Under the pieces are notes generated by a model. That model did not search any database. It saw only the letters and a list, made by a program, of their open reading frames with translations, and was not told the DNA's origin. From the NCBI GenBank assembly GCA_965178125.1, contig OZ237739.1, forward strand, positions 1,240,001 to 1,304,000: DNA of 64,000 nucleotides, read 5' to 3'. A program made the translations under genes and the position numbers. The DNA comes from Bilabrum cf. latius. Taxonomy: Eukaryota. Positions 33,657 through 56,706 of this stretch are shown here, one piece after another (positions within the stretch are counted from its first letter, which is position 1; each line of letters opens with the position of its first letter).

Positions 33657-33715
33657 GATCCTGATCTGATCCCAGCCCCCGCGAGTACCTTGGACGACTA
33701 ACCTTGAAACTGAGA

Positions 33716-33921
33716 TTGATAGGTCAGGGTTGCGTGTGGTGCGCAGCCCTAATCTGCAGGCCGTTGCTCGGATGATCCCTGGCTTTGGAGCCGCCGAGCC
33801 GAGCAAGGATGAGATGGATTCTCTCGAGTCTTTCGCCCGCAGCTGCAGAAGGGAGGAGGAGTACGAAGACGTTGTCAACCACGCTGAGACGTTGGATTAT
33901 GTTGATACGGGCTCCGATTAA
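33716..33921 (+). other. Orphan 3' coding segment, possibly the remainder of an exon interrupted by the LINE
   Basis: Protein-like frame ending TAA (…RVVRSPNLQAVARMIPGFG…DYVDTGSD). It joins in frame to 28896-28974 once the LINE and one TSD copy are removed. Confidence 0.4.
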
Positions 33922-33983
33922 TAGCAGCAAGAAACAAGCTGGCGCTTGATGCAACTCGCTGTCTTTATTCACAATAGTACTAT

Positions 33984-35750
33984 TCATCTCTCGCTACCGT
34001 CGCCTGCCGTGGCGGAGGCGGCCTGCCCACCACCAGACACGGACTTTTTGCCGGCATCACCAGCCCCTTCCTTAGCCTTCTTCCTGGCCGCCGTGCGCTC
34101 CTTGGCGGCCTCTTTCCTCTCCTTGTTCCTTTTCCGCTCATCCTCCTCGAACCTGCTGATCTCGTCCGCCATGTCCTTAGGCAGCCACCTCCTGAAGGCA
34201 GGCAGCTCCGCGGCAAACATCACGCAATGCGCCCAGCCGGCATGGGAGCCAAACCGCCCCCGAAACAGCTCCCCGACAGACTCGTACACTCGTGGAGTGA
34301 GAGACGCGGCCGCCTACAGCTCTTCGCTTGAGCGCAGGAGAGGAAGGGGGGCCTTCTTTCGACCGCGTTTTCCAACGGGAGATTGCGGCTGCTCCTGGCC
34401 CGCCTCGCTGGAGCTGGTGCTCGTAGCAGTGGCGGCGGCAGAGCCGGTTGCCTATGTCGCGCTTGCAGAGACGCTTGCTCCGCTGCTGCCTGCACCTCCC
34501 TTTTCAGCACGTGGCAGCGGCGGCAGTGTTCCCGCCCGAAAATCTCTGCACGCCATAGTCCAGACGTGCGTGTCCACGGGGACTGCGTCGCACCTGCCCA
34601 TCGAAAACAGGGCAACGCAGTCTGCCACCTTGCGACCAACTCCCACGCACTTGCACATCTCTTCCTGCACCTTGATTCTAGACTCCCTGGATACTGGCAG
34701 GGCTGCCAGAGACTCCAGGAATCGCCTGCCGCCTACTTGCACCAGGTGCTTCGCGGTGTCTCGAATGAATCGAGCACGGTATCCAAGACCGATCGCCCTT
34801 AAATCTGATTCTTCCGCAGCAGCGAGTGACTCGATCGTAGGAAACGAGTAGTACTCCTTGCCCTCGAATTCGCCAACCAAGGCGCCGTAGCGTGCCCGGA
34901 GCCGAGCAAGGATTAAATTAATCCTCGGGATGTTGTTGTTGGATGAGCAAATGAACGAAAACAGGCATTCGACGGGGTCCTGCCGCAGCACCCGCAACCC
35001 AGGCAGGCTGGCTCCAAGCACTTTATGCCGCTCGTCTGCTGCGGCCCACTGCTAGTTCAGGGATTCCATGACGTCCACAGCCGCGCTTGTACCGCTGCCG
35101 CCGCTAACGGCAGAGGCGGACCCACTGACAGAATCCGCGGGTAGCTCGTCATACTGCTAGAATGCAGTCCTTGCACTTCCAGGCAACACCTTTGGCAGTT
35201 GGTCTGGGAATACCTCCCCAATTCGAAACTGACGTCGTAGTGCAGCTCCCGCGAGATCAGTTTCGCCGGCAATCACACACATTTCCATGCCATAGCCACC
35301 ACGAGCAGTTCGGATTCGAACTAAGCTATGGGTCTGTCCTGCAGCAGCTGGAGCACCCTCTAAGTGTCGCACTACGCCAGTGTACTCGATTGGTTGGAAC
35401 ACAGAGCCTTGAAGGGTGCTGCTGTCAAGCCCAGATAGTGCAACAAGAGCGCTCTCAGCTCGGGAATTGGTGAGTACGCCTATAGCCTTAGGCGATACAC
35501 CGACTATAGCACTATCAGCCGTGGTTTTACGTCGTTTCGATGGAGATCCAGGCGGTTGTGCGCCCTGTCTGGGCCGCTTAGCGCCTGCTTGCGGAGCTGA
35601 ATCCACCGCGGCACCGCGGTTCCAGCCAAACACCTGGCCGCACTCGAGTGTGAGGAGCACGGACAGCAACCCGCAGGTTGTAGATCCTGGAACTACCTGC
35701 CAAGGTTTGCCATGTGGCGACGACATTCCAGAGCTGGCGGAAGCACACAT
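33984..35750 (-). CDS. OGG1: 8-oxoguanine DNA glycosylase/AP lyase
   Basis: TLECGQVFGW, GLRVLRQDPVECLFSFICSSNNNIPRI, GLGYRARFI, HhH-GPD GVGRKVADCVALF...PVDTHVW with catalytic Lys and Asp, AGWAHCVMFAAEL. Three track ORFs join across TAGs. Start is 35750 or 35843. Confidence 0.93.
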
Positions 35751-35953
35751 TTCGGCTGCAGCTCCCGCGCCTCCAAGCCGGCGCACGTTGAAAAGAATAG
35801 ATTTACAATGTTGACTAGTCGACCGAATACGAGTAATTATCATTCAATACTAGGAAAAAATTAGACTCAAGTTGTGGAACATTCGTTCATTGTCAGCGAA
35901 CCCCGAGACGCCGGCGCCGGCGGGCAGCATTCTGAAGCATTTAAGAAATCCCC

Positions 35954-38900
35954 TCAGCCATGCATGGCTGTCGCCATCTTCGACAAAATCGCCTCCATCA
36001 CCTCATGCGCCAGCTTCGCATTCACCCGCTGGTTCCTCCCGAAGTCCACACCTTTTCCTCCAGTCCCCGAGCAGCAGCCGCACCCTGCACAGGCCTGCGG
36101 GGAGCAGCAAAAGAGCGTGCGCCGCACGCTCAGCGGCAACGAGCTCCAGATAACAGCCCCCACTTCAGCTGCTGCCGGCCAGCAGTACTCCTCCGGATCG
36201 TTCCATGGATCCCTCGTCACCTGTCTCCTCTCCTCTGACGCGTTCTTCACGTTGATAGGGGGGTCAGTATCGTATCCTACGTGCAGCAGATCCCGGATCT
36301 GAGAGACCTTTTTCCCCGCTGAGCAGTGCACCATGATGATGGCCTTGTCCTGATCAAAGTGGTAGAATCTCTCGAGGAAGGTCTTGACTTGCCCCGGCGT
36401 AGACAGCACGAAGACGTAGACCACACCGGGCTGGAAGTCTGCACCCATAGAAATCTCCTCTGTGAACTTGACTTGGTGGGCATTGGCGCCTGCACTTGGC
36501 GCACGATCTCGCATTTTAGGCACGGGTGCAGGGACGGGGAGCTCGATCTTACCGCCGTGCCCATCTATAGCACGGGCGCGGGAACCAGACTAGCCCTTCG
36601 TTTTGCGCTGCTGCGCGTGGCCCTGGCTCTTGCTTGTCGAGCAACCTCTGCTGTTGAGGGCAACATGCAGCGTGCTCGGGGCAGCCTGTCCATTGGTGTC
36701 CACATCTGCCTGCAGCGTGCTCGGGGCAGCCTGTCCACTGGTGTCCACATCTGCCTGCAGCGTGCTCGGGGCAGCCTGTCCACTGGTGTCCACACCTGCC
36801 TGCAGCGTGCTCGAGACACCCTGTCCACTGGTGTCCACACCTGCCTGCAGCGTGCTCGGGGCAGTCTGTCCATTGGTGTCCACACCTGCCTGCAGCGTGC
36901 TCGGGGCAGCCTGTCCACTGGTGTCCACACCTGCCTGCAGCGTGCTCGGGGCAGCCTGTCCACTGGTGTCCACACCTGCCTGCAGCGTGCTCGGGGCAGC
37001 CTGTCCACTGGTGTCCACACCTGCCTGCAGCGTGCTCGGGGCAGCCTGTCCACTGGTGTCCACACCTGCCTGCAGCGTGCTCGGGGCAGCCTGTCCACTG
37101 GTGTCCACATCTGCCTGCAGCGTGCTCGGGGCAGCCTGTCCACTGGTGTCCACACCTGCCTGCAGCGTGCTCGGGGCAGCCTGTCCATTGGTGTCCACAT
37201 CTGCCTGCAGCGTGCTCGGGGCAGCCTGTCCACTGGTGTCCACACCTGCCTGCAGCGTGCTCGGGGCAGCCTGTCCACTGGTGTCCACATCTGCCTGCAG
37301 CGTGCTCGGGGCAGCCTGTCCACTGGTGTCCACATCTGCCTGCAGCGTGCTCGGGGCAGCCTGTCCACTGGTGTCCACATCTGCCTGCAGCGTGCTCGGG
37401 GCAGCCTGTCCACTGGTGCCCACATCTGCCTGTCGACTGGTGTCCACACCTGCCTGCAGCGTGCTCGGGGCAGCCTGTCCATTGGTGTCCACACCTGCCT
37501 GCAGCGTGCTCGGGGCAGCCTGTCCATTGGTGTCCACATCTGCCTGCAGCGTGCTCGGGGCAGCCTGTCCACTGGTGTCCACACCTGCCTGCAGCGTGCT
37601 CGGGGCAGCCTGTCCACTGGTGTCCACACCTGCCTGCAGCGTGCTCGGGGCAGCCTGTCCACTGGTGTCCACACCTGCCTGCAGCGTGCTCGGGGCAGCC
37701 TGTCCACTGGTGTCCACACCTGCCTGCAGCGTGCTCGGGGCAGCCTGTCCACTGGTGTCCACACCTGCCTGCAGCGTGCTCGGGGCAGCCTGTCCACTGG
37801 TGTCCACACCTGCCTGCAGCGTGCTCGGGGCAGCCTGTCCACTGGTGTCCACATCTGCCTACAGCGTGCTCGAGCCGCTTGCATCATCGGAGACCGCAAG
37901 GCTCGGGTGCCTTGCTTCAGAGCCGTCATAGCTGGAGTCGTCTTGGCTTGACTCCGTAGGTGAGCTAACGCTGCCCGGTAGTTTCCAAGTACCCAGATTG
38001 TCTGTCCACGAGGGCGGATCCTCAGTCGATTGCTGGCCGGGATTGCGACCGAACTGCGTGATGCTCTTGTTTCGATCGCCCGTGGTGGTGTCATCTTGCT
38101 GATCCTGCGAGCTGTACGTATTTGAGCTCACAAAATGATACTCCTAGATTTCGAACCCGAGCTTAAGCAGGAGCTCCATGACGCCCCGAGCCCCGGCGGG
38201 CTTTCGCACGCTCTGTGCATCTCGAAGCGCAGTTTTCTACATGGCGCGGTTACCCGCGGGCGCTATAGGGGCAGATTTGTGCTTGCCACGCTGTTTCCAC
38301 CGCGCCAGCTCGCCGTCCTGGTCGGGTGCTCCAAACATGAATGCGAATCGCAGATGCCTGGTGGAGTGTCGCTGAGTGTTTCTGGCAGCGTCAAAAATAC
38401 TGCGACTTCGCTGCATGCGTTTGCTTGCCGAGCTGGCCATAGTGATATGCTGCCACACAAAATGCGCAAGCATCCCTGGGGCTGCTACCATGGAGGTCAT
38501 GAGCCGACCGGATGCTGTATGGGCCAGCTTTGGAGGTTGGTCATCCCCGGTCCTCAGGCTGTTCATTCTTGCTGCGGAAGCGAGTTCCGTTGCCTGTGCC
38601 AAGAGGTGCACGTCTTGCTGCGGAAGCAGGCTCTGGGCTGCAACAAGTCGCCGCAGCTCAGGACTGTGGCTGTAGGCAAAGCTAAGGTCCCCAACGGCAT
38701 CGCTCGCAAGCATCGTGACAGCAAGTGCGACAATAGACAGGAACACATGCACGGGATCAACGCTCTGGTCCAACGGCTTGCTGAATGCAAATAGTCCAAT
38801 CGCCGTGTGCAGCACGGCGTAGAGTAGTAATAGCAGCTAGACCACTGCAAACAGCAGGCCAGGAGCCGCGATGAACGCATCGCCTACCTGCCGACCATCT

Positions 38901-41197
38901 TGCGACAGGAATAGCGGGCCTACCCGCAGTGAGTTGGGGGGCGCGCACAGATGACCCCTGCATCGACAGGACCTGCACCACTTCGAGCCGTACAGCTTGG
39001 TCTTGCCAGGCCCCCTTCGCTTGTCTCTGGCTTGCACCTTGGCCGCAATGCGGGAAGCGTGGAATGCATGCCAGAACGCCGTGGTGACTCGCTCGGCAGA
39101 TGCCCACCACTGGAACGATGCGATCATGGAGCGCACGTCTGGCTCCGTGATCCTGGGGTCTGGCACGCAGCACCGGAACTCGGGCTCAATCAGGGGGTCA
39201 GGGCCGACATCCTCAAGTTGTTCTGATCCGTACCCCAGCTCCCTCGCAGTGGGCTTCTTCACGCCTAGGAACATGTAGTAGTGGATGTGCCGAAGAAGCG
39301 CATCGCCCGTCTCCACCACGGGAATGCCGAAGTCTCTCATGCAAGCAAGCAGGTGCGCTCTGTCGAACCTGGGAGCTCCTGGCCCGAGCTGCTGGATGCT
39401 CTCCTCGGGCCACTCGGGCCACTCGAGACCTGGCAGGTCTCCATTTTTTGGCAGGTACACGACGAACTGCTGCCGCCGCCGCAACCGATCGTACTCGAGA
39501 TGCACAGGGACGTAACCATCTCCGTCCAGTTCATGCATCTCTTTTTCCGCCTCTCGCCGCCGCTGCATCTCGATCTTGGAATAGTGCAGGTGCAGCTGGA
39601 CCAACAGCTCGAACATGCAGTTAACGCTGCCAAGATACCCGGGCGTCATGATGATAACTGTAGATAGGGCCTGTGACATGTCGCGTGCGATGGCACCGTG
39701 GAGAGCAGCCGCGTTGGGCAGCCTGCAGACGTCGATCCAGCAGTCAGGAAGCGCCCTCGATATGCTCCTGGCGAGGCCCTGGGCACCGCTGAGCGCTTTG
39801 ACCAGCACTTTGGGCCTTGATCCTGTGACGTCGATAGGATCATCGGGAATGTCGATGGGCTGCTCCAACGGCACAGGCGGTTTTTCGGAGGCTGTTTTGG
39901 TACAAGCGGCAACTTGGACCTGCCCACTCCGACCGCTGCTAGCAGCCTTCTCGAGGCTAGCGGCACCTTGGACCTGCTCCGACAGGTCTACATATCCACC
40001 ACCCGAGTGTCCCCACTTGTACGACAGGAAAAACATCGGCGCTTGCACCCCAGAGATGGCCTGCAGCCTATCGGCAAAACTGATCGAGCTGGGATGCTTC
40101 CCCCATGCCCGCCCAGTGACGACAAAGAAGAGGCCCTGTCCCAGCACGAGCAGGATGGACAGCAGAAGCGCGATGGTGGAATCATACCTGAACGCGTCCT
40201 TCATCACGAGCCCAATCTCAGTGGCACCGATGAACAGCACGTTCTAACCCAGCACCTTCTCTTCGTGGGTGTCTAGCTCGCTGTACCGAGCGTCTGCCAG
40301 CCGGAACACAATCCCGGCAACAATGGATCCAATTACTAGGATCATGAATAGAGCCAGAGACGTGAGGTACGTCAGGGCCAGCTGCTCGTTCTCCAGGCCA
40401 GACGAGACAACAATGCCATGTTCCCTGTCAAAGTAGGCCGTCGTGTGGCCGAGGGCTATGCGTGGGCTGCACCCGCACATGCACTGCAGACACGCGCTGT
40501 GGCACGGGGCGACAAGGCGCCTGCATGCCCCGCAGCACGTGCTTCGAGCGACCCTGCCAGACGTGCAGATGAAAGAGCAGGTGCATGCCGAGCCCAGAAG
40601 CAGGAGGCATTCCTTGGTCGGCAGGTGGGCATCTTCTTCGCCGAGTTCACCGCACTCTACGTCATCGATCTTAGCCCTACGAGGATCAGACCCCACTCCA
40701 GCTTCAAGTTCCTATGCAGTATCCCAATTTATCGCTTTATGCACTGCCACTTTCACTTTCCCATTCCAGTACTCTTTGGGAATACCTCCAGCGGTCCACG
40801 GGCGAGAGCTAGCCCTGCGTCTTGTGTGTCTACGCCGCATCTACTCTATCAGATTCGCGCTATGACCAGTTGTATTAGATCGTTGCAGTTGCCCTGATCC
40901 TTTGCCTTGATCTTCCGAAGTTGGTGTGTCCTACCTATCACTTGAAGCTCCAAGAACACGCCTCAAAATGTGTGTTGCCTTCAAAAGGGAATTACTTGGT
41001 CGTAGCTTATCGTCATGTTTTGACGTCGCTCTTGATGTGAAGACGAAGGCCTCAATCATGCCAGCAAGCATCGGATCCTTTTCTACAGGAATACCAATAG
41101 GCTCCCGCTTTAGATTCTCCATCAACTCTTTGCAGTACTCTGCTATAACATTTGCAGTTCTGGGCGGCAACGGTGCAGGTTGTGGGCTTGCCATCAT
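35954..41197 (-). CDS. ~1747-aa multi-pass membrane protein with TIR-like domain and internal 15-aa tandem repeat
   Basis: Seven track ORFs join in one frame from ATG 41197 to TGA 35954 across 9 TAGs. TIR_2-like motifs FFLSYKW...CWIDV...AIARDMSQALSTVIIMTPGYLGSVNCMFEL. Two hydrophobic helices on each side of the TIR domain. Confidence 0.78.
36666..37871. repeat. Coding minisatellite, 45-bp unit, about 26-27 copies (VDTSGQAAPSTLQAG)
   Basis: Head-to-tail unit TGCAGCGTGCTCGGGGCAGCCTGTCCACTGGTGTCCACACCTGCC with few variants and one 24-bp partial unit. No spacers. Confidence 0.97.
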
Positions 41198-41351
41198 GAC
41201 TATTCACCAGTTATGGTGGCAAATTGGCGCCATGCGCGTCTGCCGGTTGGTTCCGCTCGCGGCGCCGCTATCCGACACAGCGGTTGTCGCGCAATAATCC
41301 GCGTGACCGCACAAAATTCAAGAAGTTCAAGCTGGACCTTGCTCAATACAA

Positions 41352-44300
41352 TTACCACTCGTTACCCCTACCTCGCCCGCCGCTCGACTCAAAGTCGCGC
41401 GGGCCTCGGCTATCACCCGAATGCCTGCCTCCTCCCCTTCCCCTGCCTCCTCCCTTTCCCCTTCCCCTCCCTCGCCCCCTGCTTCTTGCTTCTCTCCTCT
41501 CCACCCGCACAGCCTGGTGGGTCGTCTCTCCTTCGACCAGCTCAGTCACCGCGTTCACTTCACGGTCGCAAATTGCACACCCGCGGAGCACGCCGCCCCC
41601 GCCAGCTCGATCCAGCACCAGGACACTCGAGCCACATGACCCGCACTTGGGCCCCTCAGCCACCCTGACGCCGCTATAACTACCATGCAGCCTCATGATC
41701 ATGTTGCACTGGTTGCAGCAAGCCTTCCATGTCTTCGGGCCGCTCCTGGGGTCCAGGACCATAAAGCCCGGGCACCCCTTCACCTTGCCCCCCAGCTGCA
41801 GGGCGCTCGTCACACCCCCACTTCCACCCCTACTGCCCGATCCAGGGTCGGCACCTGCAGTGCCACGCACCGGGCCCTTGACTTTGGTTCCGCCACCCGC
41901 CGCGAGAAATGCGCGGCGCCCCGCCCCAGGCCCCCGGTCAGCCTTCCCTACTCCCATCACGAGACTGCCACCCCCCTTCCCCCAGCCGCTGCTGCCGTCC
42001 TCTTCCTCTTCGCCTCTCCGGAATCCACCTCTCCCTCTCCCTCTCCCTCTCCCCCGCCCCCGCCCTCTGCCGCCTCCTTTCGCCTGTCGCACGCCGTCCG
42101 CGAGACCCCTCGGACACGGCGCCACGGCATGCCGCACCAGACCGTGCTCGCACTCGGGGTGCATGCACTAGTCACACCCCATGCCACTTCTCGGCCCGCT
42201 GGCGAAGGGGGGGTTCGTGTAGCAGTAGGGGCACAGCACGAAGCTCCGGCCCACCGTGTTCGACTTGCGACCCAGGGAGAAGTACACCAGCTCGAAGCCA
42301 TCGAGCGGGCACTTCTTGCCCCCGTGCTTCTGGAACACCCCGTCCTGAGGCAGAGACAGGGTCTCGTTGCAGTTCTCGCAGTAGAGCCTCGAGGGCCGCT
42401 GCTTGAGAAGGGTCATGACCTTCCTGCACCTGCCGCACCGCGTGAAGGGCTCCCCGGCCTTGCCGAGGGGAGTGAACGTGGCCTCAAACAGCTCGTCCAT
42501 GGCCTGCAGGTGGGACACAAAGTACCTGAACTTGGCCTCGAACACGCCCAGCGCGTGGGTCAGCACAGCCTTGGCGTCTGCCTCGCCCTTCGCGATCCGT
42601 GAGCACTCCGCCTCGATGGCCGCACGAACCGTCGGGAGGACGAGCTCGGGATCGATCCTGCGGTACCCGTGGATCAGTGCCGTCCCCAGCATCGTGGGGA
42701 TCAGGGTCCTCCCCGGGCCAAGACTGACATAATCTCTGGCCTGGATGTTGTTGATGTGGCTCGATATGGATGCGTCGGTGCCGATCCCGTGCTTCTCCAT
42801 CTGCCCGATCAGCTCGCTCTCCGATAGATAGCCCGGTGGGCGCGTCTCGCCGTCTTTCAGTGCCAGCGAGGCAATGGACAGTTCGTCACCCGGCTCCATG
42901 CGAGGCACCGACAGGAGCTTGCCTTGCTCTCTGCCGGCCCCGCATCCAGACCCGCTCGACGCGGCTGATCCTGGTATGCCGGCAGCGGCTGTTGCTGCAT
43001 GGCCAGCCGCATCCGTCAGGCTGTCAGCGTACGAAGGCCGCAGCACAGCCAGGAAGCCCGCTCTGACCAGTCGCTTGCCCTGCGCGCTGAAATGCTCGCC
43101 GTCGAGGTGGCTGTGGCTGCGAGCGTCGCGCTCGGTTGCGGAAGATGATGGCGCGGGCTAGGCGGCGGCCGTAGACGATGACACCAACCGGTCGGTGGCA
43201 CCAGGCGCGGCACCTGCTTCAGCACCAGGCGCCAGACCTAGCCCGGGGGGCAATTGTGGTGCGCTGGCATGCGCGGGCCTGCTACTACAAGTACCTGTCG
43301 AGCCTTTCCGCCTCACCGCTATCTCGGGTGGGTCTTCCTTGGGAGCAACAAGTCGAAGGGTCTGCAGCTCGTACACGGCGTCAGGGCTGACCGTGGCAAG
43401 GAAATGTCTCGCCACGAGGTCGTAGAGTCTGGCCTCGTCGCCGTGCAGCTCGGCTGGTGACACCGCCCTCACCGGCGTGATGGGCGGGTGGTCGCCGGCG
43501 TCGAAGCCTCGTCGGGGCCGAGTGAAGCCGCCTTGCAGGCTAGCCAAGGGAGATATTGCGCTGGCGTGAGGCGAGGATGATGACATTGCTCCTATCGACG
43601 AAGCCCCCCCCTTGGCCGCCAAGAGAGGGGCAGCGTACTTGGTCCAGTGCGGGCTGCCAGCAAACTCCGCGACCGCGGACTTGAGATCGAAGGATTCTGG
43701 GTACTGGGTCGACTCCGTCCGAGGGTAGGAGAGTATCCCGTTGAGATAGAGGCGCTCTGCCACGTGCATGCACTGGTGCGGGCCCATGCCCAGTGCCCTG
43801 GAGGCGGATTTGAGCATGGCCACCGTGTTCATGGGCTGGGGCCTCCTCTGCTTGCTCTCCTCCTGGCGCCACGATGACACGACGAATCGCTTCGCAGCGC
43901 GCACTTCCTCCAACAGGGCGCGGGCGATGGACACATCGAAGCATCGGCCCCTCCGCCAGGACAGAGGCAGCACCATCTGCCGCTAGCTCGCCGCCCTGTC
44001 GCCTGCACCGGACGCGCTCGGTGGAGGCAGGCCTGCTGCACCCACGAGAGACCAGTACCTCTCCGGCCGAAATGCGGCTATTTCGTCGGCCCGCTGCACA
44101 CAGAAGCCGAGGGTGGGTGTTTGGCAAGGGCCGTAGCTCACCACTCTTGCATCAAGGTCTCCGTACTTGCCCTGGAAGTACCTCGTCTGGAACCGACTGA
44201 ATGCAACGCCAACCTTAAGGTCAAGTTCTTGCCTGGCATCGACAGAAAGGGCTTCGTTCTCATCTGGGTCTGTTAAAGAGGACATGGCCTTTGCGATGTC

Positions 44301-44768
44301 AGACGGGCTTACCGCGCTGAACTTAGCACGAAACGCTCGCTTTCCAGCGCCCTTTGGCGGTCGTGACAACACAGGCAAGACGACGTCAAGCACTTCGAAG
44401 CAAATATTTTCCCCCTCCCTGTCACAATCTAGAAACAAGATGACATAAGATGCTCCTCGAGCCTCGTCTCGCAGATGTCTGATGGTGCCACCTTGGTTTG
44501 GCTGCTTCTCAGTGGGTGCAGCGAAAAGCTCGACCGGATCAACCGCGTCCCAATCCTAGTAGCGATCTGGAAAATCTGTGCTGAATACGTGACCTGTTAC
44601 GCTGGTAACTTTAAACTGGATTGGCTTGCCCAAGAAGCTGCCCTCGCATTCGAACACAGGGATCCTTCCGCGGTCTAGCTTTCTGGGGGACCCACGAGCC
44701 AGAGCTCGAGCAACCGCCTGGGCTATGCTAGGTTTTTCAGCAACAACGAACGCCACTTTGGTCGCCAT
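41352..44768 (-). CDS. TOP3B: DNA/RNA topoisomerase III beta
   Basis: VAEKPSIA, VTSVTGHVF, LDCDREGENICFEV, SVDARQELDLKVGVAFSRFQT, SYGPCQTPTLGFCV, catalytic LSYPRTEST, AGDHPPITP, GIGTDASI, C-terminal Zn-finger Cys pairs and RGG tail. Four TAGs. Ends at TAA. Confidence 0.96.
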
Positions 44769-45811: not shown

Positions 45812-46195
45812 ATGATTCAGAGGTGTAGCATTAGCGGGCTTGCCAGCCTACCGACTGCAAGGGGTTCGGCTTTGTGGAAAGGGCAAATCCTTTCTGCTGG
45901 TGACAAAGGGCTAGAATACGGCAGCACTGTGCTTCAAATCCAGAATGATTGCAATCTGGTAATTTATCGTGAAGGTACGGCCATGTGGGCATCGCACACG
46001 GTGGGGTATGCCCAGAGATGTGGCCTTCTCATCACCACCAACTAGTGCTCGAGAGAAGGCGACCTCGCCTTGGTCGACATGCGATCAGGCCAGGTTCTCT
46101 GGAGAGTACCCGCTGCCTCTGTGAGCCCTAAGCCAGACTCTCTCGCGGTGCAGGATGACGGGAATGTGGTTCTGTTCAAGGCGGGCGGTACGTGA
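45812..46195 (+). CDS. Bulb-type (GNA-like) mannose-binding lectin domain exon
   Basis: LQIQNDCNLVIY...WASHTVG...CGLLITTN*CSREGDLALVD..GQVLW...LAVQDDGNVVLF contains QxDxNxVxY-type subdomains. One TAG at 46043. Possible GTACGT donor at 46188. Confidence 0.8.
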
Positions 46196-46557
46196 GGAAG
46201 CACTGCAAGCAACGTTACCCACGCGAGCACAAAATCAAGCCCGGCACTACTAGCACATGCGGGGCTGAATCTTTTGCTTCCATTCCATGCATACTATTGT
46301 AACTGCCCCTCGTCTTGTGGCCGTGGCTCAGCGGCAAATTCGCGTTTCCCTTTGATCCCATTGATCCAATTTGCGTCACCGTCATCTCCGCTTCGCAGGC
46401 CCGCATGGAGCACGTGGACGCAAAAGAACTGTGAGACACGCCGCGCCACGCTTCTATCCCGCTTTCACGGGCTCGCGCGGCTTGTTCACCGTCTCCTCCC
46501 TCGTACAAATCAGCTGCTGCTTGCTTCTTCGTACGCCCCCTAATCCAAAATGCAGGG

Positions 46558-47720: not shown

Positions 47721-47999
47721 CAGTTGGCGCACCAAAGAGCCCGACCGGATCAACCGCGTCCCAACCTAGTAGCAATCTGGAAAATCTGTGCTAAATACGT
47801 GACCTGCTACGCTGGTAACTTTGAACTGGATTGACTTGCCCAACAATCTACCTTCGCTTTCAAACACAGGGATCCTTCCGCCATCTAGCTTTCTAGGGGA
47901 CCCACAAGCCAGAGCTCGAGCAACCGCCTGGGCTATGCTAGGTTTTTCAGCAACAACGAACGCTACGTTGGTCGCCGTGCATGCCACGTTTGAGACACG
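47721..47999 (-). pseudogene. Degenerate duplicate of the TOP3B 5' end
   Basis: Aligns by eye to about 44510-44789. The start ATG has become ACG, a 1-nt deletion follows the conserved TAG, and homology stops after WDAVDPVGLFGAPT. Confidence 0.9.
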
Positions 48000-48098
48000 C
48001 GACAGCAAATGCAATTGCAAGGCACCCAGTGTGATGATTGGACATTGTCAGAGCCTCTCTCTTCTGGTGCAGACTCGAACTATGCGGAATTATACGAT

Positions 48099-51000
48099 AT
48101 GAAGAACAAATTTTGTCGGCTCTTCCGCTTGGTGCTCCGGAGACGTAGAGCAACGCATGGAAAACGCTATGTGCGGGCGCAAGCTTTCGTGAAGCCTGTG
48201 CCACGAGATAGAATTGCAACTAGGAGCGCTTAGTGGAGAGACTCGGTGCAATACTGTTTGCATCTGGAGCATGCAGTAGAACTTTCAGAAACTGAGGGAC
48301 GGCTGCGATCATCACCAGAGTCTGTCTTAGTAGCGCAAGGCAAAATTCTCACAAGCGCATGGGCGAGGATGGCCCCAAGGTCCGCGGATGCTCATGGTGG
48401 TAGGCAGGTGTACCGGTTCGAGACCGGAATAGACTCTGCAAGGCTTCAAAACGAGCCTATCCGGCTGCGATCGTCCGCCGGCGCGACATCGATCGGCTTG
48501 GCTGCACTCCCGCGGGTGCCCCTTCCTGAGCAGCTCTCGATCAGGAGGGGGGATCTCGTCACCGTGAGGCCAATGCAGCCACCCACTGCCACTGCGAGTC
48601 ATCGAACGAAAAGCGGATCTAAACGAACCAAAAACCGCGGATGGAAGAACTCTCAGTGGGAGGGCAGGGGCGTGGTGGTGGGCAGGGGAGCATCCCACGT
48701 CGACGTGGCAATGTTTGCTGGCCTGCCCCTAGGCCTCTGGGCCCCCGAAGATGTGGGAGTGGGAGTGCAAGCGCTGGCGTAGGAAGCAGAAGAGAGGGGC
48801 CTGGGCATGGATCTTGTGCTCTACTTTGCCACGGGGACGGGGACGGGGACGTGGCCGGGCTCGGGCTCGGGCTCGGGTGCCGGTGCCGCGTCACGCGAGG
48901 CAGTGGCAGTGGAGGAAAGGGCCCTGGCTCTGCCCCCTAGGAAGAGACAGACGTGCAGGGAACTGGGTGCACGGCTCATGAAACTACTGTCTCCACCTCC
49001 GTGCCTTTGGAGGGTGGAGCAAGGCACGAGCGACTCGAATAGGGCGCGACTGGCCCGGGCAGTCTCGCACATCGCGGGCCAGGGGCTCCTACCAAGCGAA
49101 TCGGTGCCTCTGGACGGACATCCACTTCTTGACCGGTAGCAGCAGGATTCCTTTGGGCTAGGTCCGGCGTTTCGCAGATCCGGCGGGGACGTGGCCGACT
49201 ATGCCACTCCCCATTGGATCTCTGGTGTGGTGCCCGACCCTCTCATACGGAGCGGACTGCATTACAGCACGCTCGATCCGACGTGCGCCCAGATCGTGCT
49301 GGGCGAGGCTGGGGTCAAGCTAGACCGAGAGGCTGGTGGGGGCTCCACTACAGCGCGTGCAGCCCGGGCCAGCAGCCAGAGCTAGGGGGCAGCCGCGGGC
49401 GACTCGTGGAGGCCTGCTCATGAGTTGGATGCCGAAGAGCGATCCTCTGACCTAGCTGCGCGCCAGCTGGACAGCAGGCTCATTCGGGGCGTGGTTCCTG
49501 CCCACAGCCCGCCGGCGTGGCTCCGCGATGCGATCGTGTCGTCATGGGAACACAGGAGGTAGAAAGGGCAGTTCACCTCTACCGCCCTCGTGCGAGAGAT
49601 GAAAAAGGCCGAGCAGCTGAGAGGCAAGGACGGGCCATCTTCGCTGCTTCCGGGGGGACTCAAGGCCCCGTGGCATGGGGAAGATGCCGCTCCAGATATC
49701 AGCAGCGTAAGGAAGGATGGATGTCCCGCCCCTGGTACTAGCAGTACGGTAGGAGCTCAACTGGAATCGCCGGGCACTGCAGAACTTGCCGTTGCTCTTC
49801 GATCGCTTGAACACGGCCTGCTGGAGGCTGCTAAGCAAAGGAAGCATCAGCTGCAGGACTTGTCTGCCTTTGAGAACCTGAGCTTGTCCAGCGAAGCGCA
49901 AGCAGTACGTCAATCGGCGCTGCAGGCCGAGATGGTGCTAAGGCCGCTCAGCCAAGAATCGCTGCGCGAGGTGCTGCGCGACACGGAAGCGCTAAACCAC
50001 AGCCAGCGAGTTGCGTGCATGGTCGCATCGGCCTCCGTACTCAGCACGATCCATGGACCGCCGGGTACGGGCAAGACCCGCACTGCAGCGGCCTACGTAC
50101 GCTCTTGGCTCAGGAGGCAGGACGCGGTGCTGAGGGAGGTGCCGGCAGCTGTGGCTCTGCCACGAACGGCGCCGTAGAAGCACCCCAAAGGTATGCAACG
50201 CAGTGCGCAAGATGAGCACACGTGGGGATTTTATGGTGCGGACGGCAGTGGGCCAGGGCAGTCGCCTGCCAGGCTGCAGCGGGCACACGATGCTGCCATC
50301 ATGGGGTCAACGGTCTCACATGCCGGCGACGGTGCTGACCTGTCGCACTCGTACAACGATCCTGTAGGCCAAGAGGTTGATTTCAATGTGGGCACGATCG
50401 ATGCGCCGTGGAGCCAGTCCGTGGAACCTGTTTCTTCGAGCTCATCTGCCGGTCACAGCTTAGACGATACACCTCGTTAGGCCACTGACTCTATGCGCTT
50501 AACTTTCGACCCGAACCGTCCTGCTAGACCCAGGGTTCTGTGCGTTGCCCCGTCGAACGCCGCGGCTGACAATCTGATGCGCGCCCTCATGGCACAAGGG
50601 GTGGGCAAGGGCGTGGACGAGTGGGGCACACGCGAATCGTGCGATTCGAACGAGAAAAGCACTGTGCAGCGCCATTGGCCAGTGTCTAGGCTTGGGGAGC
50701 CCAGCCGCGTCTCGCCCGATCTCAGGCACCTCACAGTGCAGGAGCTGTCTGGCCTATCTCCCCTGTGGAAGCGGGCAGAAGGCCTAAGGTCTGACGCGAG
50801 GCAGGCAGTCGCAGAGGCAGCAGCGGAATTCGATCTTGCGGCAGCCACGCAGCGCGCGTTGGATGAGCTGCTAAGCATCGCGAAACTGAAGATGGTGCGT
50901 AGGCGCGGGAGCAACAGGCCTGTGTTCAGGCCTGCCGAGCAGCAGGACCGAGGCGGTGAGCCAAACACACCACGTATGGTGATTGATGCTGGGGCTGGAG

Positions 51001-53924
51001 CCGCTACATCGAACAGCTCAGACGAGGCGACAGAACCCAGCGACATTGACGCTGGCATGTCCGCCGCCCATGCCTCCATCGGAGAGATCTTGGATGAGAT
51101 CGAGAAAGCCGAGGCTCGCCTGCTAGCGAGGAGATTCAACAGGGACAGGGGCGATGATGTAGAGCCGGGGGAAGCGGAGCTGGGCGCAGACGACGTCGAT
51201 TCTATCCTCGAGCAGCAGGAGCGGCCCGCAGTAAGCACAGATTTTGAGATGGAAAAGGAAGCCGAAAGTTCAACCATCGGTGAAGATTGGGCGATGGAGA
51301 GCGATGGTTCATCAGGTTACTTGCGGGCACCCGGTGCTGGACGTGATGCACTGCCCAGCGATGGAGAGTAGCAACATTCCGGCTCCCAAGGCCCTACGTC
51401 AGAAGGCAGCACAGAGGAGAATAGCCCGGGGTACCTGTCATCGGACCTTGACGAGAAGCTGTGGCGATCCGATGAGTCCGAGGGCGGCAGCTCTGAGCAT
51501 GACACGGACGCCACGGCAGAATCCCTGACTGCCGGATTTCTGAGGGGCTGGAGGGACCGAAGCAAGAGCGCAGTTGAGATGCTCCGCGGGCCCGGATTGG
51601 AATCAGACGACGAGGCTAGGCTGACCCGGCGCAGGCAAGCGAGGGAGGCCATGCAGTTCGAGCGGATGGATGCCGAGAAGGAGGCTGCTGAGGAGAGAGC
51701 GAGGGTTCGGCGGCGAAGACAAGCGCACCGAGACTACCGCAGGAAGTCTAACAGGAAGCAGCGCATGCACGACGCGATTGACAAGATTGAGAGGAAGACG
51801 ACTGGCAGCAGCTAGGGCGGTGGTGGTGCATCGTCTCAAGTGAGCGAAGAGTTCGCCGAGCTGGTGCAGGAGCTAGAGCTGGAGTCACAAACCCACAGGA
51901 CGCGGGCGATCGACCTGAGGGAAGAGGCATCCTCGGCGCTGCTTGTGGCCTAGCAGCTGAACGATCGGGCCAGGAAGGAGGTGGTCGCTGCGTCTAGTGT
52001 GGTGGTGGCGACTTGCGCCGGGGCGGGCACCGAGACCTTGGATGGGCTTGGGTTCGGGCTGGTGCTGCTGGACGAGGCGGGGCAGGCACACGATGGAGCA
52101 GCAGCTGCCGCATTGGCCAGGCTATCGCCGCACCCAATGTCGCAGGCTGTGCTCGTGGGAGACGACCGGCAGCTGCCTCCGACGGTGAAGGCACCGGCTG
52201 CGAGCGCTCTGCTCGATACCCTCTTTGGCCGCCTGGTTGACGCCAGCTCGGCCTCTAGGCGGGAGGAGACGTGGGACATCCAGAGTGCGGGGTCAGTGCC
52301 AGAGCCTAGCAGCGAAAGGAGCGAGGCAAGCATGTTGCCAGGGGCTGCAGAGGACGATCATCGCAGTGCCACGGCTCCCAGCGTTGATCGTGGGACAGGG
52401 AAGAACAGAGCGGCCGGGGTGAAGGAAGACCAGGTGCATTTGGACGACGGACAAGTCAGGGCGACGTACACGCTGCTGCAGCAGCAGTACCGGTCGCATC
52501 CCTCCATCGTCGCCTTCTCCAGTCTAGCTTTCTACGCTGGCGGAGTGCAGAGCGCGGTCCAGGCGTCTTCAAGGCCGCCCATCCCGGGGTTTCCGTGGCC
52601 CCGCCCTTAGGACCTCGGAGGAATCGCGTTCGTGCCCGTGTCTCCAGCCTCGCTCGCTGGCGCACCAAATCACGGTGGGTCGAGAGGGTCTCAAACTAGC
52701 ACTCGCTAGGGCGGGCTGGAGGCCCTCGGACGGGACGAGACAAGCTTCCACAATTTCGAGGAGGCGATGGCTGTGAAGAGGATCGTCAAATCAGTGCTGG
52801 CGAGGGGCGCACTCGGGTGGATTGAGGCCATGACCTCGGCAGCTGCCGAATCCCAGTCATCTGGTGGCGGGGATGGTGCCCATGCCGCCACTAGTGCCCG
52901 CGAACAAGGGACCGCAGCTGCGCTTGCGCCTGCACATCCATATGACCAAGAACAGGGTGCGGCTCGCCCGCAGAGTATTGCTACCGATGGGCTGTACGCC
53001 GCAGTCGGGCAGCTCTGCCACGCTGAAAGTGGATCGGTCATTTCGGGTCTGCCTTCGGGTGCCGGCGAGCTGTCTGCATCGGGGGCGTCAAGCGTCCTCG
53101 AGGCGGTGTCTAGGAGCGATTGGGATGGCGGCAGCCGCGAAGCATTGCTGTTGGAAATCGCTCGAGATACCTCCGAATCCGCCAGAGCGCGTGATGGCCG
53201 GGACATGTTGCGTGATCCACCGGTCAGTGATGCTGCTCTCGATCGGCAGGCGGCTCTCTGGGGCGACCAGGCCGAGGAGGTGGCGCGTGCTGTCGCAGCA
53301 GGGCGGGCTGATGCCGTGCTTGAACTGGCGCAGCACCTGGCACCAGGTGCTGCATTGCGCTGCAGCGCTAATTTTCGTGCTGCGTTGGATCACTGGGGTC
53401 AAGCCGAGGGTGAGGGCGCTTCAGCGATTGCCGGTGCACTGCGGTCCGGCGTCAGCGCCAGCGGGGGTGCCCCGCCCGTGCTGCCTCGGTCGATCGGAGT
53501 GATTGCTCCGTATGCTGCACAGGCCCGCCTGATCCGTAAGGTGCTTCGAAGGGCAGGTGTGCCCGTCCGCGACGACGACAGCTCCCGGGGGCAGCCGCAA
53601 GCCGCGAGAGGCGGGGAAGCCGAGGCGGCTGAAGACTGGCTCGGATCGGTCGTCGTGTCGACCGTGGACGGATTTCAGGGATAGGAGTGCGACCTCATTC
53701 TTCTTTCATGCACGCGATCCAATTCGAGAGGGCGGCTGGGATTTCTTCGCGACCCGCGTCGGCTGAATGTGGCTCTCACCCGGGCAAGGAGGGGCCTCGT
53801 GGTGGTCGGCGACCCGGACACGCTTGAGAAGGATCCATTCTGGTCAGCATTTTTGGCGTTCGTGGACAAGAACGGAGCGCGCATGGGGGGAAATTCGCTC
53901 GCCAGAGTCCTAGGCCGACAGTGA
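48099..53924 (+). CDS. UPF1-like SF1 helicase (IGHMBP2/SMUBP-2/Hcs1-like N-terminus) with large insertions, ~1940 aa
   Basis: [101 protein letters not shown]. One frame with 13 TAGs, ends at TGA. Start is 48009 or 48099. Confidence 0.9.
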
Positions 53925-54111
53925 TTCGAGAAACCCGCGCAGCCATCGCGTTTGGCCACTCTCTCAACATGACCGCGTCATCCACGAGATACGGCTCGAG
54001 GCGTGCAAATATTGAATTTGCAAATAATTTACTTAAGACTGAGAGCAAATACTTCGAGTTCTAGGACTCAAGCAAGTGGCAGCTGCCTGCGCTTCTCCTT
54101 GACGAACATTA

Positions 54112-55515
54112 TCACCAGCACATGCCGCGCTTCTCCTTGACGATCTCGCCGGCAGCCTTGCGGGAGGGACCGCAGCCAAGGCTCGACATGACAGACTCCA
54201 TCATACCCTTGCCCTCCTCAGTGGCAGGCATGTTGCGGAACAGGGAATCCAGGGTCACGTTCTCCATCCGCACGATGAGCGCCTGCTCGTCTCCGTTGAA
54301 AGTGGTCATGCCCACGAGCGAGTCGATGTTGTCCTTGCCCACGAAGTACACGGTGGCGGCACGGCTTGCGGCCCCGCTGAGCGCGGCGCCCTCCTTGATC
54401 TCGCCCTGCTCCTGGTTGAAGAGAGCCTTGGTGACGCGCACCGCCAGCTCCCTGGGCTCGACCTCCTTGCCCTTGCTGCTGGGCTCGGCCACTGCTGCCA
54501 TCGTCCCCACCGAAGCAAACACCTTCCCTGCAAATGCGGTCAGCACGGCCTGCATGGCCTTCTTCATCTGCTTCTCCTGATCCTCAGTCAGCTTGGCCTC
54601 CTCCTTCTTCTTGCCGTCGGCGGCGGGCTTGTCCGACTCCTCCGAGATGCACAGGCCCTCGGCAGCCTTTGCGACCGCGTCGATGTCGAAACCGTCATCG
54701 CCGGAATCGGAAGCAGCGGCAGATGCTGCTGCGGCCCCCCCTGCTGCCCCGCCGGTGGCCGGGCTGCCGCCCTTCGACTTCTTCCCTCCAGAGGTGGAGG
54801 CGGGGGCTGCTCCAGCGCCGGATGCCGCGAGCAGTGCCTTGATGGCATCGACGGATGCCTTTGTGGAGGGCTCGATGTCGGCCTTCTCCGCGGTGGAGCC
54901 CAGGGGCAGGGCCGCGAACAGCGCGGGGGAGATGGCGGCGGTGGCGTTGAAGGCAGGGATCCTGTTTGGCTTGATCTTGGCTGCCTCCTCCTCGGATACC
55001 TTCTCCCTGCGCGCCTTCACGGCCTTCTCCACGGCCTCCTTGGCCTCGTCGGAGAGGGTGATGGAGTCGGCGCCGGTCACCGCGGCGGTGTCGAGCTCGG
55101 GGGTCGTCTCGATGGTGGCGGACTCGAGGCCGCGGGTGAGCGCCTCAAGGAGGGCGGGGAGGCTGGCGAGCTTCTTCTTGTCCACGGTGGAGCGGCGAGG
55201 GAAGGAGTAGCCGACCAGGATGATGGTCTTGCCGTCCAGCACGAAGGTGTTGGTGCCAGGTGGGGTGTCCACGCCGATGAGGTTGAGGAGCTGGGCCTCC
55301 TGCAAGAGTGCCACGAGCCTACCAATGTCACGCTCCACGTAGGAGCTCTTCAGGGCAATGGTGAAGACGATCGTGGTGTATTCGGCCACCTTCTTGTCGG
55401 TGTTCAGGTACTCAGGCACGTCCTTGTCCAGCTGCGCGAACATCTCGCGCAGGCTGGCTGCAACCTTCGAGTCCTTGCTGGCATTCTCCACTTGGAACCG
55501 CATGGAAGAAGCCAT
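54112..55515 (-). CDS. Hypothetical 467-aa protein with strong codon bias
   Basis: Clean ATG-to-TGA ORF, strongly G/C-ending codons, no TAG, no recognisable domain. Possible 5'UTR intron at 55679-55528. Confidence 0.8.
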   Translation of the reverse strand: MASSMRFQVENASKDSKVAASLREMFAQLDKDVPEYLNTDKKVAEYTTIVFTIALKSSYVERDIGRLVALLQEAQLLNLIGVDTPPGTNTFVLDGKTIILVGYSFPRRSTVDKKKLASLPALLEALTRGLESATIETTPELDTAAVTGADSITLSDEAKEAVEKAVKARREKVSEEEAAKIKPNRIPAFNATAAISPALFAALPLGSTAEKADIEPSTKASVDAIKALLAASGAGAAPASTSGGKKSKGGSPATGGAAGGAAAASAAASDSGDDGFDIDAVAKAAEGLCISEESDKPAADGKKKEEAKLTEDQEKQMKKAMQAVLTAFAGKVFASVGTMAAVAEPSSKGKEVEPRELAVRVTKALFNQEQGEIKEGAALSGAASRAATVYFVGKDNIDSLVGMTTFNGDEQALIVRMENVTLDSLFRNMPATEEGKGMMESVMSSLGCGPSRKAAGEIVKEKRGMCW

Positions 55516-56061
55516 GGATGTGCTTGCCTGCAGGATTTGATTAAATTAATGATCGCAGGTCGTATAAGTGTTGGCAGCGATGGTAGCGAGAGCGTGCTGA
55601 TCCGTGCAATCTTCTGCAGAATTGTGCTGTTGCCAGCAAGGTGCGAAGCCTCAAGCTCGGGCAAATGCACGCTGCTCACATGGAGATCAGACTGCTCCTC
55701 TGTCGTCTTGCTCTCCACCTCAATAGGCCTGCGAGGCAGCAAATGGATTTGAAGCTTCGCGACGCAAATACAGCACCAACAGAACCGACAGGACGGACAT
55801 GTCCATGCGCTCGGATACGGATACGTTTCAGGTCATTGCTACATAATTCTCTACATTTCTCACTCTGGGCACTTGAATTTGATAGGCATGGTAAACTTGT
55901 ACGGCAACCACTGCTGAAGGCCCAAGAGCCAGCTCCGGCCAAAAATACTGGTTTTATCCAAGACCAAAGTTGCGAGCAATCACACAATTCGGAGTCTAAA
56001 CAAGCCACGAAACCGATTGCAGCAATCCATACCCCATTGGCGCATAGCAAGCTGGATAGCG

Positions 56062-56706
56062 ATGGGAATTTGTGGTAGTACCGACCAGAATGCATCATAT
56101 GAATACTCACAGCAGAGTGCCTCTGGATCAGGCTCCTCTGGAGCGCCTCAGGCGCACAGGCAGCTGTCACAGGACGAGACAAGGAAAACCTCAACCGCAA
56201 TCGGTTCGCAAGCAGATCACGGTCTGATAACCGCAGCTAGGAGGGGAGATGCTGCGGGTGTGTAGCAAATGCTCGATCAAGGCGCTTCAATCAATTTCGG
56301 CGCTGGGCTTTCTAATACGGTCCCGCCGATACACGAGGCTTTGCTGAACGGGCACGAAGAATTGGCCTGTACGATGGTTGCACTTGGTGCAAGGTGTGAC
56401 GTCAAGGAGCCTAGTGGATTTACTCCTCTGATAATTGCGGCGCGGAAGCAAATGAATGACGCGGCTGCCGCCATCGTCGGCAGTGGGGAGGGTGGGACGG
56501 CCTCGGTCAATGAGCAGGACAAGACTGGCAGGACTGCTCTGCACTACGCCGCATTAAAATAGAATCGAAGTATGATTGGGCTCTTATTAAGCGCCGGGGC
56601 ATTGTCTACGATCAAGGACAGTCGTGGCAAGGCGCCGACTGACCCCACCACCGACAAGGGCGGCATCGTCGAAGCAGAGGCGCGCAAACTGGGAGGTGGC
56701 TCCTAA
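56062..56706 (+). CDS. Small ankyrin-repeat protein with MGICGS acylation motif
   Basis: LITAARRGDAAGV*QMLDQGASIN, PPIHEALLNGHEE, GFTPLIIAA, GRTALHYAALK*NRSMIGLLLSAGA. Two TAGs. Ends at TAA 56704-56706. Confidence 0.85.

What the first reader, a model, noticed from the sequence alone, without database searches (positions are those of the whole stretch)
33919..56706. UAA and UAG are uncoupled: TAA still terminates genes
Seen: TOP3B ends at TAA (41352) directly after its RGG tail. The ankyrin gene ends at TAA (56704) and the orphan segment ends at TAA (33919). No in-frame TAA occurs in tens of kb of TAG-containing coding sequence. The other genes end in TGA and none convincingly ends in TAG. 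Established: most eukaryotic UAR reassignments (ciliate-type table 6) change UAA and UAG together, and separate meanings are known from only a few lineages such as Iotanema, a rhizarian and some ciliates. Inference: this is a rare case needing an eRF1 that reads UAA/UGA but not UAG.
Basis: partly seen in the sequence, partly recalled or inferred. Interest (0 to 1): 0.8.

Follow-up and report, generated by a model that had tools for sequence, protein, structure and literature searches.

The report
UAG codes glutamine, UAA still stops
In this GC-rich, intron-poor protist sequence the codon TAG is read as glutamine inside genes, while TAA never occurs inside a gene and ends two of them, a rare split already known from a few other lineages.

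Summary
The core observation holds. I read 19 long frames with TAG as sense. Of the 18 with a stop inside the window, 16 end in TGA, 2 in TAA (TOP3B at 41352-41354 on the minus strand, ankyrin gene at 56704-56706) and 0 in TAG. In 17,783 in-frame codons there are 95 TAG, 0 TAA and 0 TGA. About 33 TAA would be expected if TAA were used like CAA.

A scan that uses no gene models gives the same split: coding-like sequence on both sides of 68 of 201 TAG sites, 0 of 29 TAA sites and 0 of 189 TGA sites.

TAG means glutamine. Two TAG codons in a resident LINE-like reverse transcriptase fall on columns that are Q in 139 of 142 and 145 of 145 homologues.

This code (UAG=Gln, UAA and UGA stop) is already described for Iotanema, Protocruzia and some phyllopharyngean ciliates. 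I therefore file it as a new member of a known kind, probably in a new lineage. The tRNA and eRF1 mechanism could not be tested, because neither gene is in the window and no genome is held.

The parts
41352..41354 (-). TAA stop codon of the TOP3B gene (CDS 41355-44768, minus strand)
   Evidence: The frame ends ...GRGRGNEW TAA TTG TAT TGA. The codon score of the next 50 codons is -0.37.
41355..44768 (-). TOP3B coding sequence with 4 in-frame TAG (44556-58, 43983-85, 43158-60, 42168-70)
   Evidence: Pfam. PDB match to human TOP3B at E 4e-220. TAG coordinates. A contig of run X5 covers 42078-44796 with 0 differences, so all four TAG stand unchanged in it.
56704..56706 (+). TAA stop codon of the ankyrin-repeat gene (ATG 56062, 2 in-frame TAG at 56263-65 and 56560-62)
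   Evidence: Contigs of X5, X6 and X7 cover the gene with 0 differences and end at 56781-56797. The codon score downstream is -0.39.
33670..33921 (+). Not accepted as a gene.
   Evidence: frame list; no Pfam family; gene-like codon score of 0.19 to 0.29, but a short frame.
31518..31520 (-). In-frame TAG in the LINE-like reverse transcriptase at the Q of the Q-x-G-F block
   Evidence: Q in 139 of 142 ungapped homologues. It aligns with Q in 3 of 3 R2 chains shown.
31236..31238 (-). In-frame TAG in the reverse transcriptase at the Q of the Q-G-x-x-L-S-P block
   Evidence: Q in 145 of 145 ungapped homologues. It aligns with Q in 3 of 3 R2 chains shown.
29205..33896 (-). LINE-like retroelement frame (1563 codons, 10 in-frame TAG, 0 TAA, ends in TGA)
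47994..53924 (+). SF1 helicase frame, 13 in-frame TAG, ends in TGA. One TAG (53682-84) lies inside the C-terminal helicase domain.
54109..54114 (-). Tandem TGA-TAA at the end of the most heavily covered gene (unk5, CDS 54115-55515, no TAG)
   Evidence: Depths.
33984..35843 (-). OGG1-like gene, 4 in-frame TAG, ends in TGA
35954..41203 (-). Repeat-rich orphan gene, 9 in-frame TAG, ends in TGA

Best explanation
The organism uses a nuclear code in which UAG is an ordinary glutamine codon, while UAA and UGA remain terminators. UGA is the usual terminator and UAA the minor one.

Shown: TAG occurs throughout real coding sequence, at conserved Gln positions, and is kept in transcript-like contigs. TAA is excluded from reading frames and is found only at their ends.

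Inferred, not shown: UAG is read by a tRNA-Gln with anticodon CUA. Such a tRNA cannot pair with UAA, which is why the two codons can part in this direction. It is one base away from the normal tRNA-Gln(CUG). Also inferred: eRF1 has lost or weakened its recognition of UAG while keeping UAA and UGA.
For: 1. Codon counts. 95 TAG, 0 TAA and 0 TGA stand in frame in 17,783 codons. Out of frame in the same DNA there are 44 and 66 TAA. If TAA were used relative to TAG as CAA is to CAG (ratio 0.35), 33 would be expected (P about 4e-15). Even the lowest A/G ratio among comparable codon pairs (CTA/CTG, 0.135) gives 12.9 expected (P about 3e-6).

2. Scan without gene models. Among sites flanked by 60 TAA/TGA-free codons on each side, both flanks score as coding for 68 of 201 TAG, 0 of 29 TAA and 0 of 189 TGA.

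3. Terminators. 16 TGA, 2 TAA and 0 TAG in 18 frames. Both TAA lie within 3 and 13 codons of the next TGA. If TAA were a sense codon placed at random, the chance of that is about 2e-4.

4. Coding signal around the stops. It continues after the last TAG in 14 of 14 TAG-bearing frames. It is negative in 16 of 17 stretches after the annotated stops, with the remaining one at +0.03.

5. TAG behaves like a normal codon. Its positions along genes are even (deciles 13, 7, 7, 12, 8, 8, 11, 11, 10, 5). The base that follows it is distributed like that after CAG.

6. Meaning of TAG. Two reverse-transcriptase columns are Q in 139 of 142 and 145 of 145 homologues. The two TOP3B columns in conserved regions are N103/Q13/S2/R1/F1 and E60/S23/Q20/A9 plus others. 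Single-reference pairs give S, N, E and E.

7. No editing and no splicing-out. Contigs of runs X5-X7 show GT..AG skips that the DNA run X2 lacks. The same contigs carry the TOP3B and ankyrin TAG codons and the ankyrin TAA unchanged.
Against: - Only 64 kb and 18 gene ends were examined.
- Only 2 genes end in TAA, and each has a TGA shortly after. Termination at TAA is therefore inferred from its exclusion from frames and its position, not observed.
- The codon-score table was trained on frames that I had bounded by TAA and TGA, which is a mild circularity.
- That X5-X7 are RNA is the tool's guess, and for X5 it says 'probably DNA'. My reading rests on the spliced joints.
- No tRNA or eRF1 gene is available, so the mechanism is untested.
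- Glutamate is not formally excluded at the less conserved TAG columns, where E is the commonest partner at three of them.
Confidence: 0.8

Rival explanations
1. Ambiguous or context-dependent code. TAG is glutamine inside genes but also ends some genes, or TAA is occasionally sense elsewhere in the genome, as in Condylostoma, karyorelicts or Blastocrithidia.
For: Only 18 gene ends were seen. For frames without homologues (for example the 41 codons after the last TAG of the Ank-BTB gene) a TAG end cannot be excluded by homology.
Against: No frame needs TAG as its end. The coding score stays positive in frame after the last TAG in 14 of 14 frames. TAG is not depleted toward 3' ends beyond noise. 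No TAA site has coding sequence on both sides, 0 of 29.
Confidence: 0.1
2. Both UAA and UAG are reassigned (ciliate-type table 6), and TAA is merely rare because the genome is GC-rich.
For: TAA is the rarest of the three triplets in the window, 188 against 453 TAG on the plus strand.
Against: Out-of-frame TAA is common in the same genes (44 and 66) while in-frame TAA is 0. Between 13 and 51 would be expected from the A/G ratios of other codon pairs. The only two in-frame TAA are terminal.
Confidence: 0.03
3. TAA is unassigned: avoided because nothing reads it well, neither a sense codon nor an efficient stop. TGA would be the only true terminator, and TOP3B and the ankyrin gene would really end at the TGA a few codons on.
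For: Both TAA ends are followed by an in-frame TGA within 3 and 13 codons. 16 of 18 genes use TGA.
Against: UAA as stop is the ancestral state and is kept in every described UAG-only lineage (PMC5304391 and PMC11687900, passages). A tandem TGA-TAA ends the most heavily covered gene. An unread codon in two expressed genes would stall ribosomes.
Confidence: 0.05
4. Artefact: the TAG-containing frames are pseudogenes, assembly errors, unspliced introns or sites of RNA editing.
For: None specific. Several long frames have no homologues.
Against: 95 TAG against 0 TGA and 0 TAA in the same frames. Frames run up to 2,942 codons. TAG sits at invariant Q columns. Independent runs from three studies carry the same TAG with 0 differences, and their spliced contigs keep them.
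Confidence: 0.01

Closest known systems
Iotanema spirale (Fornicata) nuclear code: UAG=Gln, UAA and UGA stop (PMC5304391, passages read)
   Same: It has the same three assignments. UAG is the only reassigned stop, its meaning is glutamine, and UAA and UGA are kept as terminators.
   Different: UAA is the predominant terminator in Iotanema (passage), whereas TGA is here (16 of 18). The window is 61% GC. Its TOP3B groups with stramenopile sequences, not with a metamonad. Iotanema is known from a transcriptome, while here genomic DNA with a resident retroelement shows the code.
Protocruzia tuzeti and two phyllopharyngean ciliate lineages: UAG (not UAA) to Gln (PMC11687900, discussion passage read)
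   Same: The same codon is reassigned and the meaning is the same.
   Different: Nothing here suggests a ciliate. The DNA is GC-rich, it carries a LINE-like element, and the best named TOP3B and GCS matches are stramenopiles and other non-ciliates. I did not see these ciliates' stop-codon usage.
Rhizarian exLh (UAG=Leu) and Scotinosphaera (UAG=Ser)
   Same: UAG alone is reassigned and UAA is kept as stop.
   Different: The amino acid differs. The TAG columns here are Q, not L or S: 139 of 142 and 145 of 145.
Ciliate-type table 6 codes (UAA and UAG both Gln; many ciliates, hexamitids, some ulvophytes, oxymonads)
   Same: UAG is read as glutamine, and the likely route is a mutated tRNA-Gln.
   Different: UAA is not a sense codon here: 0 in 17,783 codons and 0 of 29 scanned sites.
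Ambiguous codes (Condylostoma, karyorelicts, Blastocrithidia)
   Same: A standard stop codon occurs inside genes.
   Different: There is no sign that TAG doubles as a terminator or that its use depends on position, but the sample is small.

Membership tests
UAG=Gln, UAA/UGA=stop nuclear code (Iotanema type; I recall this as NCBI table 15) | UAG occurs in frame inside conserved, expressed genes | tested here: met
   95 TAG in 17,783 codons. They occur in TOP3B, OGG1, the SF1 helicase, CobW, GT15, GCS and the ankyrin genes. They are kept in contigs of three further runs.
UAG=Gln, UAA/UGA=stop nuclear code (Iotanema type; I recall this as NCBI table 15) | UAG corresponds to glutamine | tested here: met
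   Two near-invariant Q columns of reverse transcriptase: 139 of 142 and 145 of 145. Q is the second or third commonest residue at two TOP3B columns.
UAG=Gln, UAA/UGA=stop nuclear code (Iotanema type; I recall this as NCBI table 15) | UAA is absent from reading frames | tested here: met
   0 in-frame TAA against 13 to 51 expected. 0 of 29 TAA sites have coding sequence on both sides.
UAG=Gln, UAA/UGA=stop nuclear code (Iotanema type; I recall this as NCBI table 15) | UAA is used as a terminator | tested here: inconclusive
   2 of 18 frames end in TAA, and one tandem TGA-TAA was seen. Both TAA ends have a TGA within 13 codons, and no protein or ribosome data are available.
UAG=Gln, UAA/UGA=stop nuclear code (Iotanema type; I recall this as NCBI table 15) | UAG is not used as a terminator | tested here: inconclusive
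   0 of 18 ends are TAG, and the coding score continues after every last TAG. Only 18 genes were examined.
UAG=Gln, UAA/UGA=stop nuclear code (Iotanema type; I recall this as NCBI table 15) | tRNA-Gln(CUA) is present and no tRNA(UUA) exists | not testable with these tools
   No tRNA gene in the window (ARAGORN; Rfam). No genome is held.
UAG=Gln, UAA/UGA=stop nuclear code (Iotanema type; I recall this as NCBI table 15) | eRF1 N-domain is altered at residues that read the third stop-codon base | not testable with these tools
   eRF1 is not encoded in the window (one search covers all long frames). No genome is held.
Table 6 (UAA and UAG both Gln) | UAA is in frame at sense positions | tested here: not met
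Context-dependent stop/sense codes | The same codon both terminates and encodes, with sense copies depleted near 3' ends | tested here: not met
   No TAG ends were found, and TAG is spread evenly along genes. The sample is small.

The most novel reading that the evidence does not exclude
This would be an independent origin of the UAG-only-to-glutamine code in a lineage outside ciliates and metamonads, probably related to stramenopiles. That supergroup has no published nuclear code change that my searches could find. The genome is GC-rich and ends genes mainly with UGA, and the change is old enough that a resident LINE element uses TAG at its catalytic-core glutamines. Such an organism would give a genome-level system, rather than a transcriptome-only one, for asking how eRF1 separates UAG from UAA.
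Probability: 0.45. Interest if true: 0.7.

Novelty: new member of a known kind. Interest (0 to 1): 0.6.

Why it matters
UAA and UAG almost always change meaning together, so every lineage that splits them is a natural experiment on two questions: how release factor eRF1 tells the two codons apart, and how a single anticodon change (CUG to CUA) can capture a stop codon.

There is also a practical consequence. Any gene caller run with the standard code will cut this genome's proteins at TAG, which accounts for 12% of Gln-type codons here. Running it with table 6 would instead read through the TAA ends. The fragmentary relatives of the reverse transcriptase in public protein sets may reflect the same problem.

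Tried and rejected
BUSCO-wide stop tables, a tRNA census and eRF1 could therefore not be done.
- The window has no tRNA gene and no Rfam family.
- More DNA of the same lineage was sought and not found. The metagenome scan with the retroelement protein found no relative. The viral-contig scan found none.
- Sequencing runs: no RNA holder is listed on record. X5-X7 are marked 'RNA?' by guess. Parts without cover are not used as evidence. The contig ends near 56781-56797 do not discriminate between TAA and the TGA 13 codons later.
- The highly covered orphan unk5 has only 2 database relatives, neither named.
- The 83-codon frame at 33670-33921 has no Pfam family.
- GCS TAG codons fall in lineage-specific insertions and gave only gap columns.
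- Literature: searches for a stramenopile or other new UAG-only lineage found none beyond those cited. PMC6733595 came up but concerns plastid codes (passages). Supplements were not opened.
- The TOP3B tree is a quick, unfinished search with only 3 named protists, so I use it as a lead only.
Full report
WHAT THE WINDOW IS. The 64 kb are 57-67% GC and hold no N. Read with the standard code, the long frames break up. Read with TAG as sense, and TAA and TGA as stops, they fuse into frames of up to 2,942 codons.

I took 19 frames as genes. Eleven have Pfam domains above the curated cut-off: an aldo-keto reductase, a thioredoxin protein, an Ank-BTB protein, CobW, a GT15 mannosyltransferase, a LINE-like reverse transcriptase, OGG1, TOP3B, an SF1 helicase, an ankyrin protein and glutamate-cysteine ligase (GCS). 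One, a GDSL lipase, has a weak match. Seven have no family.

Introns exist but are few. GCS has at least three 5' exons, found by tblastn with homologues. Contigs of three runs skip GT..AG-bounded stretches in two other genes.

CHECK OF THE OBSERVATION. TOP3B on the minus strand ends ...GRGRGNEW TAA at 41352-41354. The ankyrin gene ends ...GGS TAA at 56704-56706. Of the 18 frames whose end lies in the window, 16 end in TGA, 2 in TAA and none in TAG.

Counted from the first ATG, the frames hold 17,783 codons with 95 TAG, 0 TAA and 0 TGA in frame. The other two sense frames of the same DNA hold 44 and 66 TAA, 113 and 129 TAG, and 283 and 354 TGA. So TAG is nearly as common in frame as out of frame, while TAA and TGA are excluded.

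The third example, 'orphan segment ends at TAA 33919', is an 83-codon plus-strand frame (33670-33921). It lies next to the 5' end of the minus-strand retroelement. It has no Pfam family. Its codon score is gene-like, but I do not count it.

IS THE ABSENCE OF TAA MORE THAN GC BIAS? CAA/CAG is 0.35 in these genes. If TAA stood to TAG as CAA stands to CAG, 33 TAA would be expected (Poisson P about 4e-15). The lowest comparable A/G ratio, CTA/CTG at 0.135, still gives 12.9 expected (P about 3e-6).

My frames were bounded by TAA by construction, so I also ran a scan that uses no gene models. I took every TAA, TAG or TGA in any of the six frames that has 60 TAA/TGA-free codons on each side. I then asked whether both flanks score as coding. 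The answer is yes for 68 of 201 TAG sites, 0 of 29 TAA sites and 0 of 189 TGA sites. The score table was trained on my frames, which is a mild circularity.

DOES TAG EVER END A GENE, AND DOES TAA REALLY END ONE? After the last TAG of each of the 14 TAG-bearing frames scored, the in-frame codon score stays positive (0.05 to 0.38) and both other frames are negative. After the annotated stops, the next 50 codons score negative in 16 of 17 cases, and the remaining one scores +0.03. The stretches after the two TAA score -0.37 and -0.39.

TAG positions are spread evenly along genes (deciles 13, 7, 7, 12, 8, 8, 11, 11, 10, 5). The base after TAG is distributed like that after CAG.

The weak point is that an in-frame TGA follows the two TAA after 3 and 13 codons, so frame length cannot prove termination at TAA. 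The argument is positional. If TAA were a sense codon, the chance that its only two occurrences both lie within 13 codons of a TGA is about 2e-4. The most heavily covered gene ends in a tandem TGA-TAA.

WHAT TAG ENCODES. In the reverse transcriptase, two TAG codons (31518-31520 and 31236-31238) align with Q in all three R2 structures shown. Among the 150 best library representatives, those columns are Q in 139 of 142 and 145 of 145 ungapped rows.

In TOP3B, two of the four TAG lie in conserved columns. Across 120 homologues these are N103/Q13/S2/R1/F1 and E60/S23/Q20/A9 plus others. The other two TAG lie in insertions. Single-reference alignments pair TAG with S in OGG1, N and E in GT15, and E in CobW. 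Those are typical exchange partners of Gln. The three GCS TAG lie in insertions and say nothing. Glutamine is the best-supported meaning.

TRANSCRIPT-LIKE EVIDENCE. Seven runs from three studies hold the stretch. None is on record as RNA, and X5-X7 are marked as guesses. Their contigs skip 45672-45768, 46192-46398 and 46431-46555 (GT..AG). On the other strand they skip 55527-55678 and 55728-55862. The DNA run X2 shows none of these joints.

The same runs carry all four TOP3B TAG with 0 differences: X5 in one contig (42078-44796), and X6 in three contigs that between them cover all four. X5, X6 and X7 also carry both ankyrin TAG and the TAA unchanged. So the TAG codons are neither spliced out nor edited. 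The ankyrin contigs end at 56781-56797, which does not separate TAA from the later TGA.

MECHANISM (INFERRED). A tRNA with anticodon CUA reads UAG but not UAA, whereas UUA would read both. This is why UAG can be captured alone, and it is the explanation given for Iotanema and the rhizarian exLh (PMC5304391, passages). That paper reports T32G in the GTS motif of Iotanema eRF1, and only an unusual L69A in exLh. I could test neither tRNA nor eRF1.

TAG use falls with GC3 (Spearman -0.55, P 0.014), and the three most GC3-rich genes have none. This fits a minor codon served by a minor tRNA, but that reading is conjecture.

COMPARISON AND NOVELTY. The code UAG=Gln with UAA and UGA as stops was first shown for Iotanema spirale (PMC5304391, passage). 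According to the discussion of PMC11687900 (passage), it also occurs in Protocruzia tuzeti and twice in phyllopharyngean ciliates. UAG alone means Leu in a rhizarian and Ser in Scotinosphaera. The kind is therefore known.

Its best named TOP3B matches are Nannochloropsis (51%), Mallomonas (49%) and Albugo (48%). In a quick single-gene tree it sits in a clade with these three, with SH-aLRT 100. The best named GCS match is a pelagophyte (49%). The closest GCS relative is an unnamed metagenome protein at 72% identity.

Five literature searches found no report of such a code in stramenopiles. I read only listings and passages, not supplements.

I file it as a new member of a known kind, with moderate-to-high interest. 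The interest depends on whole-genome confirmation and on where the lineage sits.

Noticed in passing
window 29205-33896 (-): There is an apparently intact LINE-like non-LTR retroelement frame of 1,563 codons, carrying 10 in-frame TAG, two of them at invariant catalytic-core glutamines. Its closest database relatives (44-57% identity) are short fragments. Several start at the first Met after a window TAG, and one stops two residues before it, as if they too had been cut at in-frame TAG by standard-code gene callers.
   Followed up: partly
window 36666-37872 (-), inside gene 35954-41203: A 45-base unit is repeated about 27 times at 88-98% identity. It encodes a 15-residue repeat (...AAPSTLQAGVDTSGQ...) in a 1,749-codon orphan protein.
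   Followed up: no
window 63596-63840 (+): A perfect GCTGGT hexamer array of about 41 copies encodes a run of Ala-Gly inside the GDSL-lipase-like frame.
   Followed up: no
window 54112-55545 (-): The orphan gene unk5 has by far the highest contig depth in runs X5-X7 (about 290-855, against 2-45 for its neighbours). It has GC3 of 0.86, no TAG, two 5' introns and a tandem TGA-TAA stop. Only 2 relatives exist in 5.8 billion proteins.
   Followed up: partly
window 44670-45336: The DNA run X2 reaches depth about 1,544 here, against about 35-50 around it, and contigs break at 44902-44950. This looks like a high-copy repeat in the TOP3B upstream region.
   Followed up: no
window 54479 joined to 41431: Contigs of X5, X6 and X7 each join position 54479 to 41431 with the same 12 extra letters between the two sides (table 5c). 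It may be a chimera at a shared low-complexity stretch, or a real rearranged copy. It is unexplained.
   Followed up: no
window 60098-61202 (-): The GCS gene has at least three short 5' exons separated by introns (tblastn with homologues). The long frame 56924-60637 in my gene list therefore includes some intron sequence at its 5' end.
   Followed up: partly
all genes: TAG density falls as GC3 rises (Spearman -0.55, P 0.014). The three most GC3-rich genes (AKR, the thioredoxin protein and unk5) have none, which suggests TAG is a non-preferred Gln codon.
   Followed up: partly
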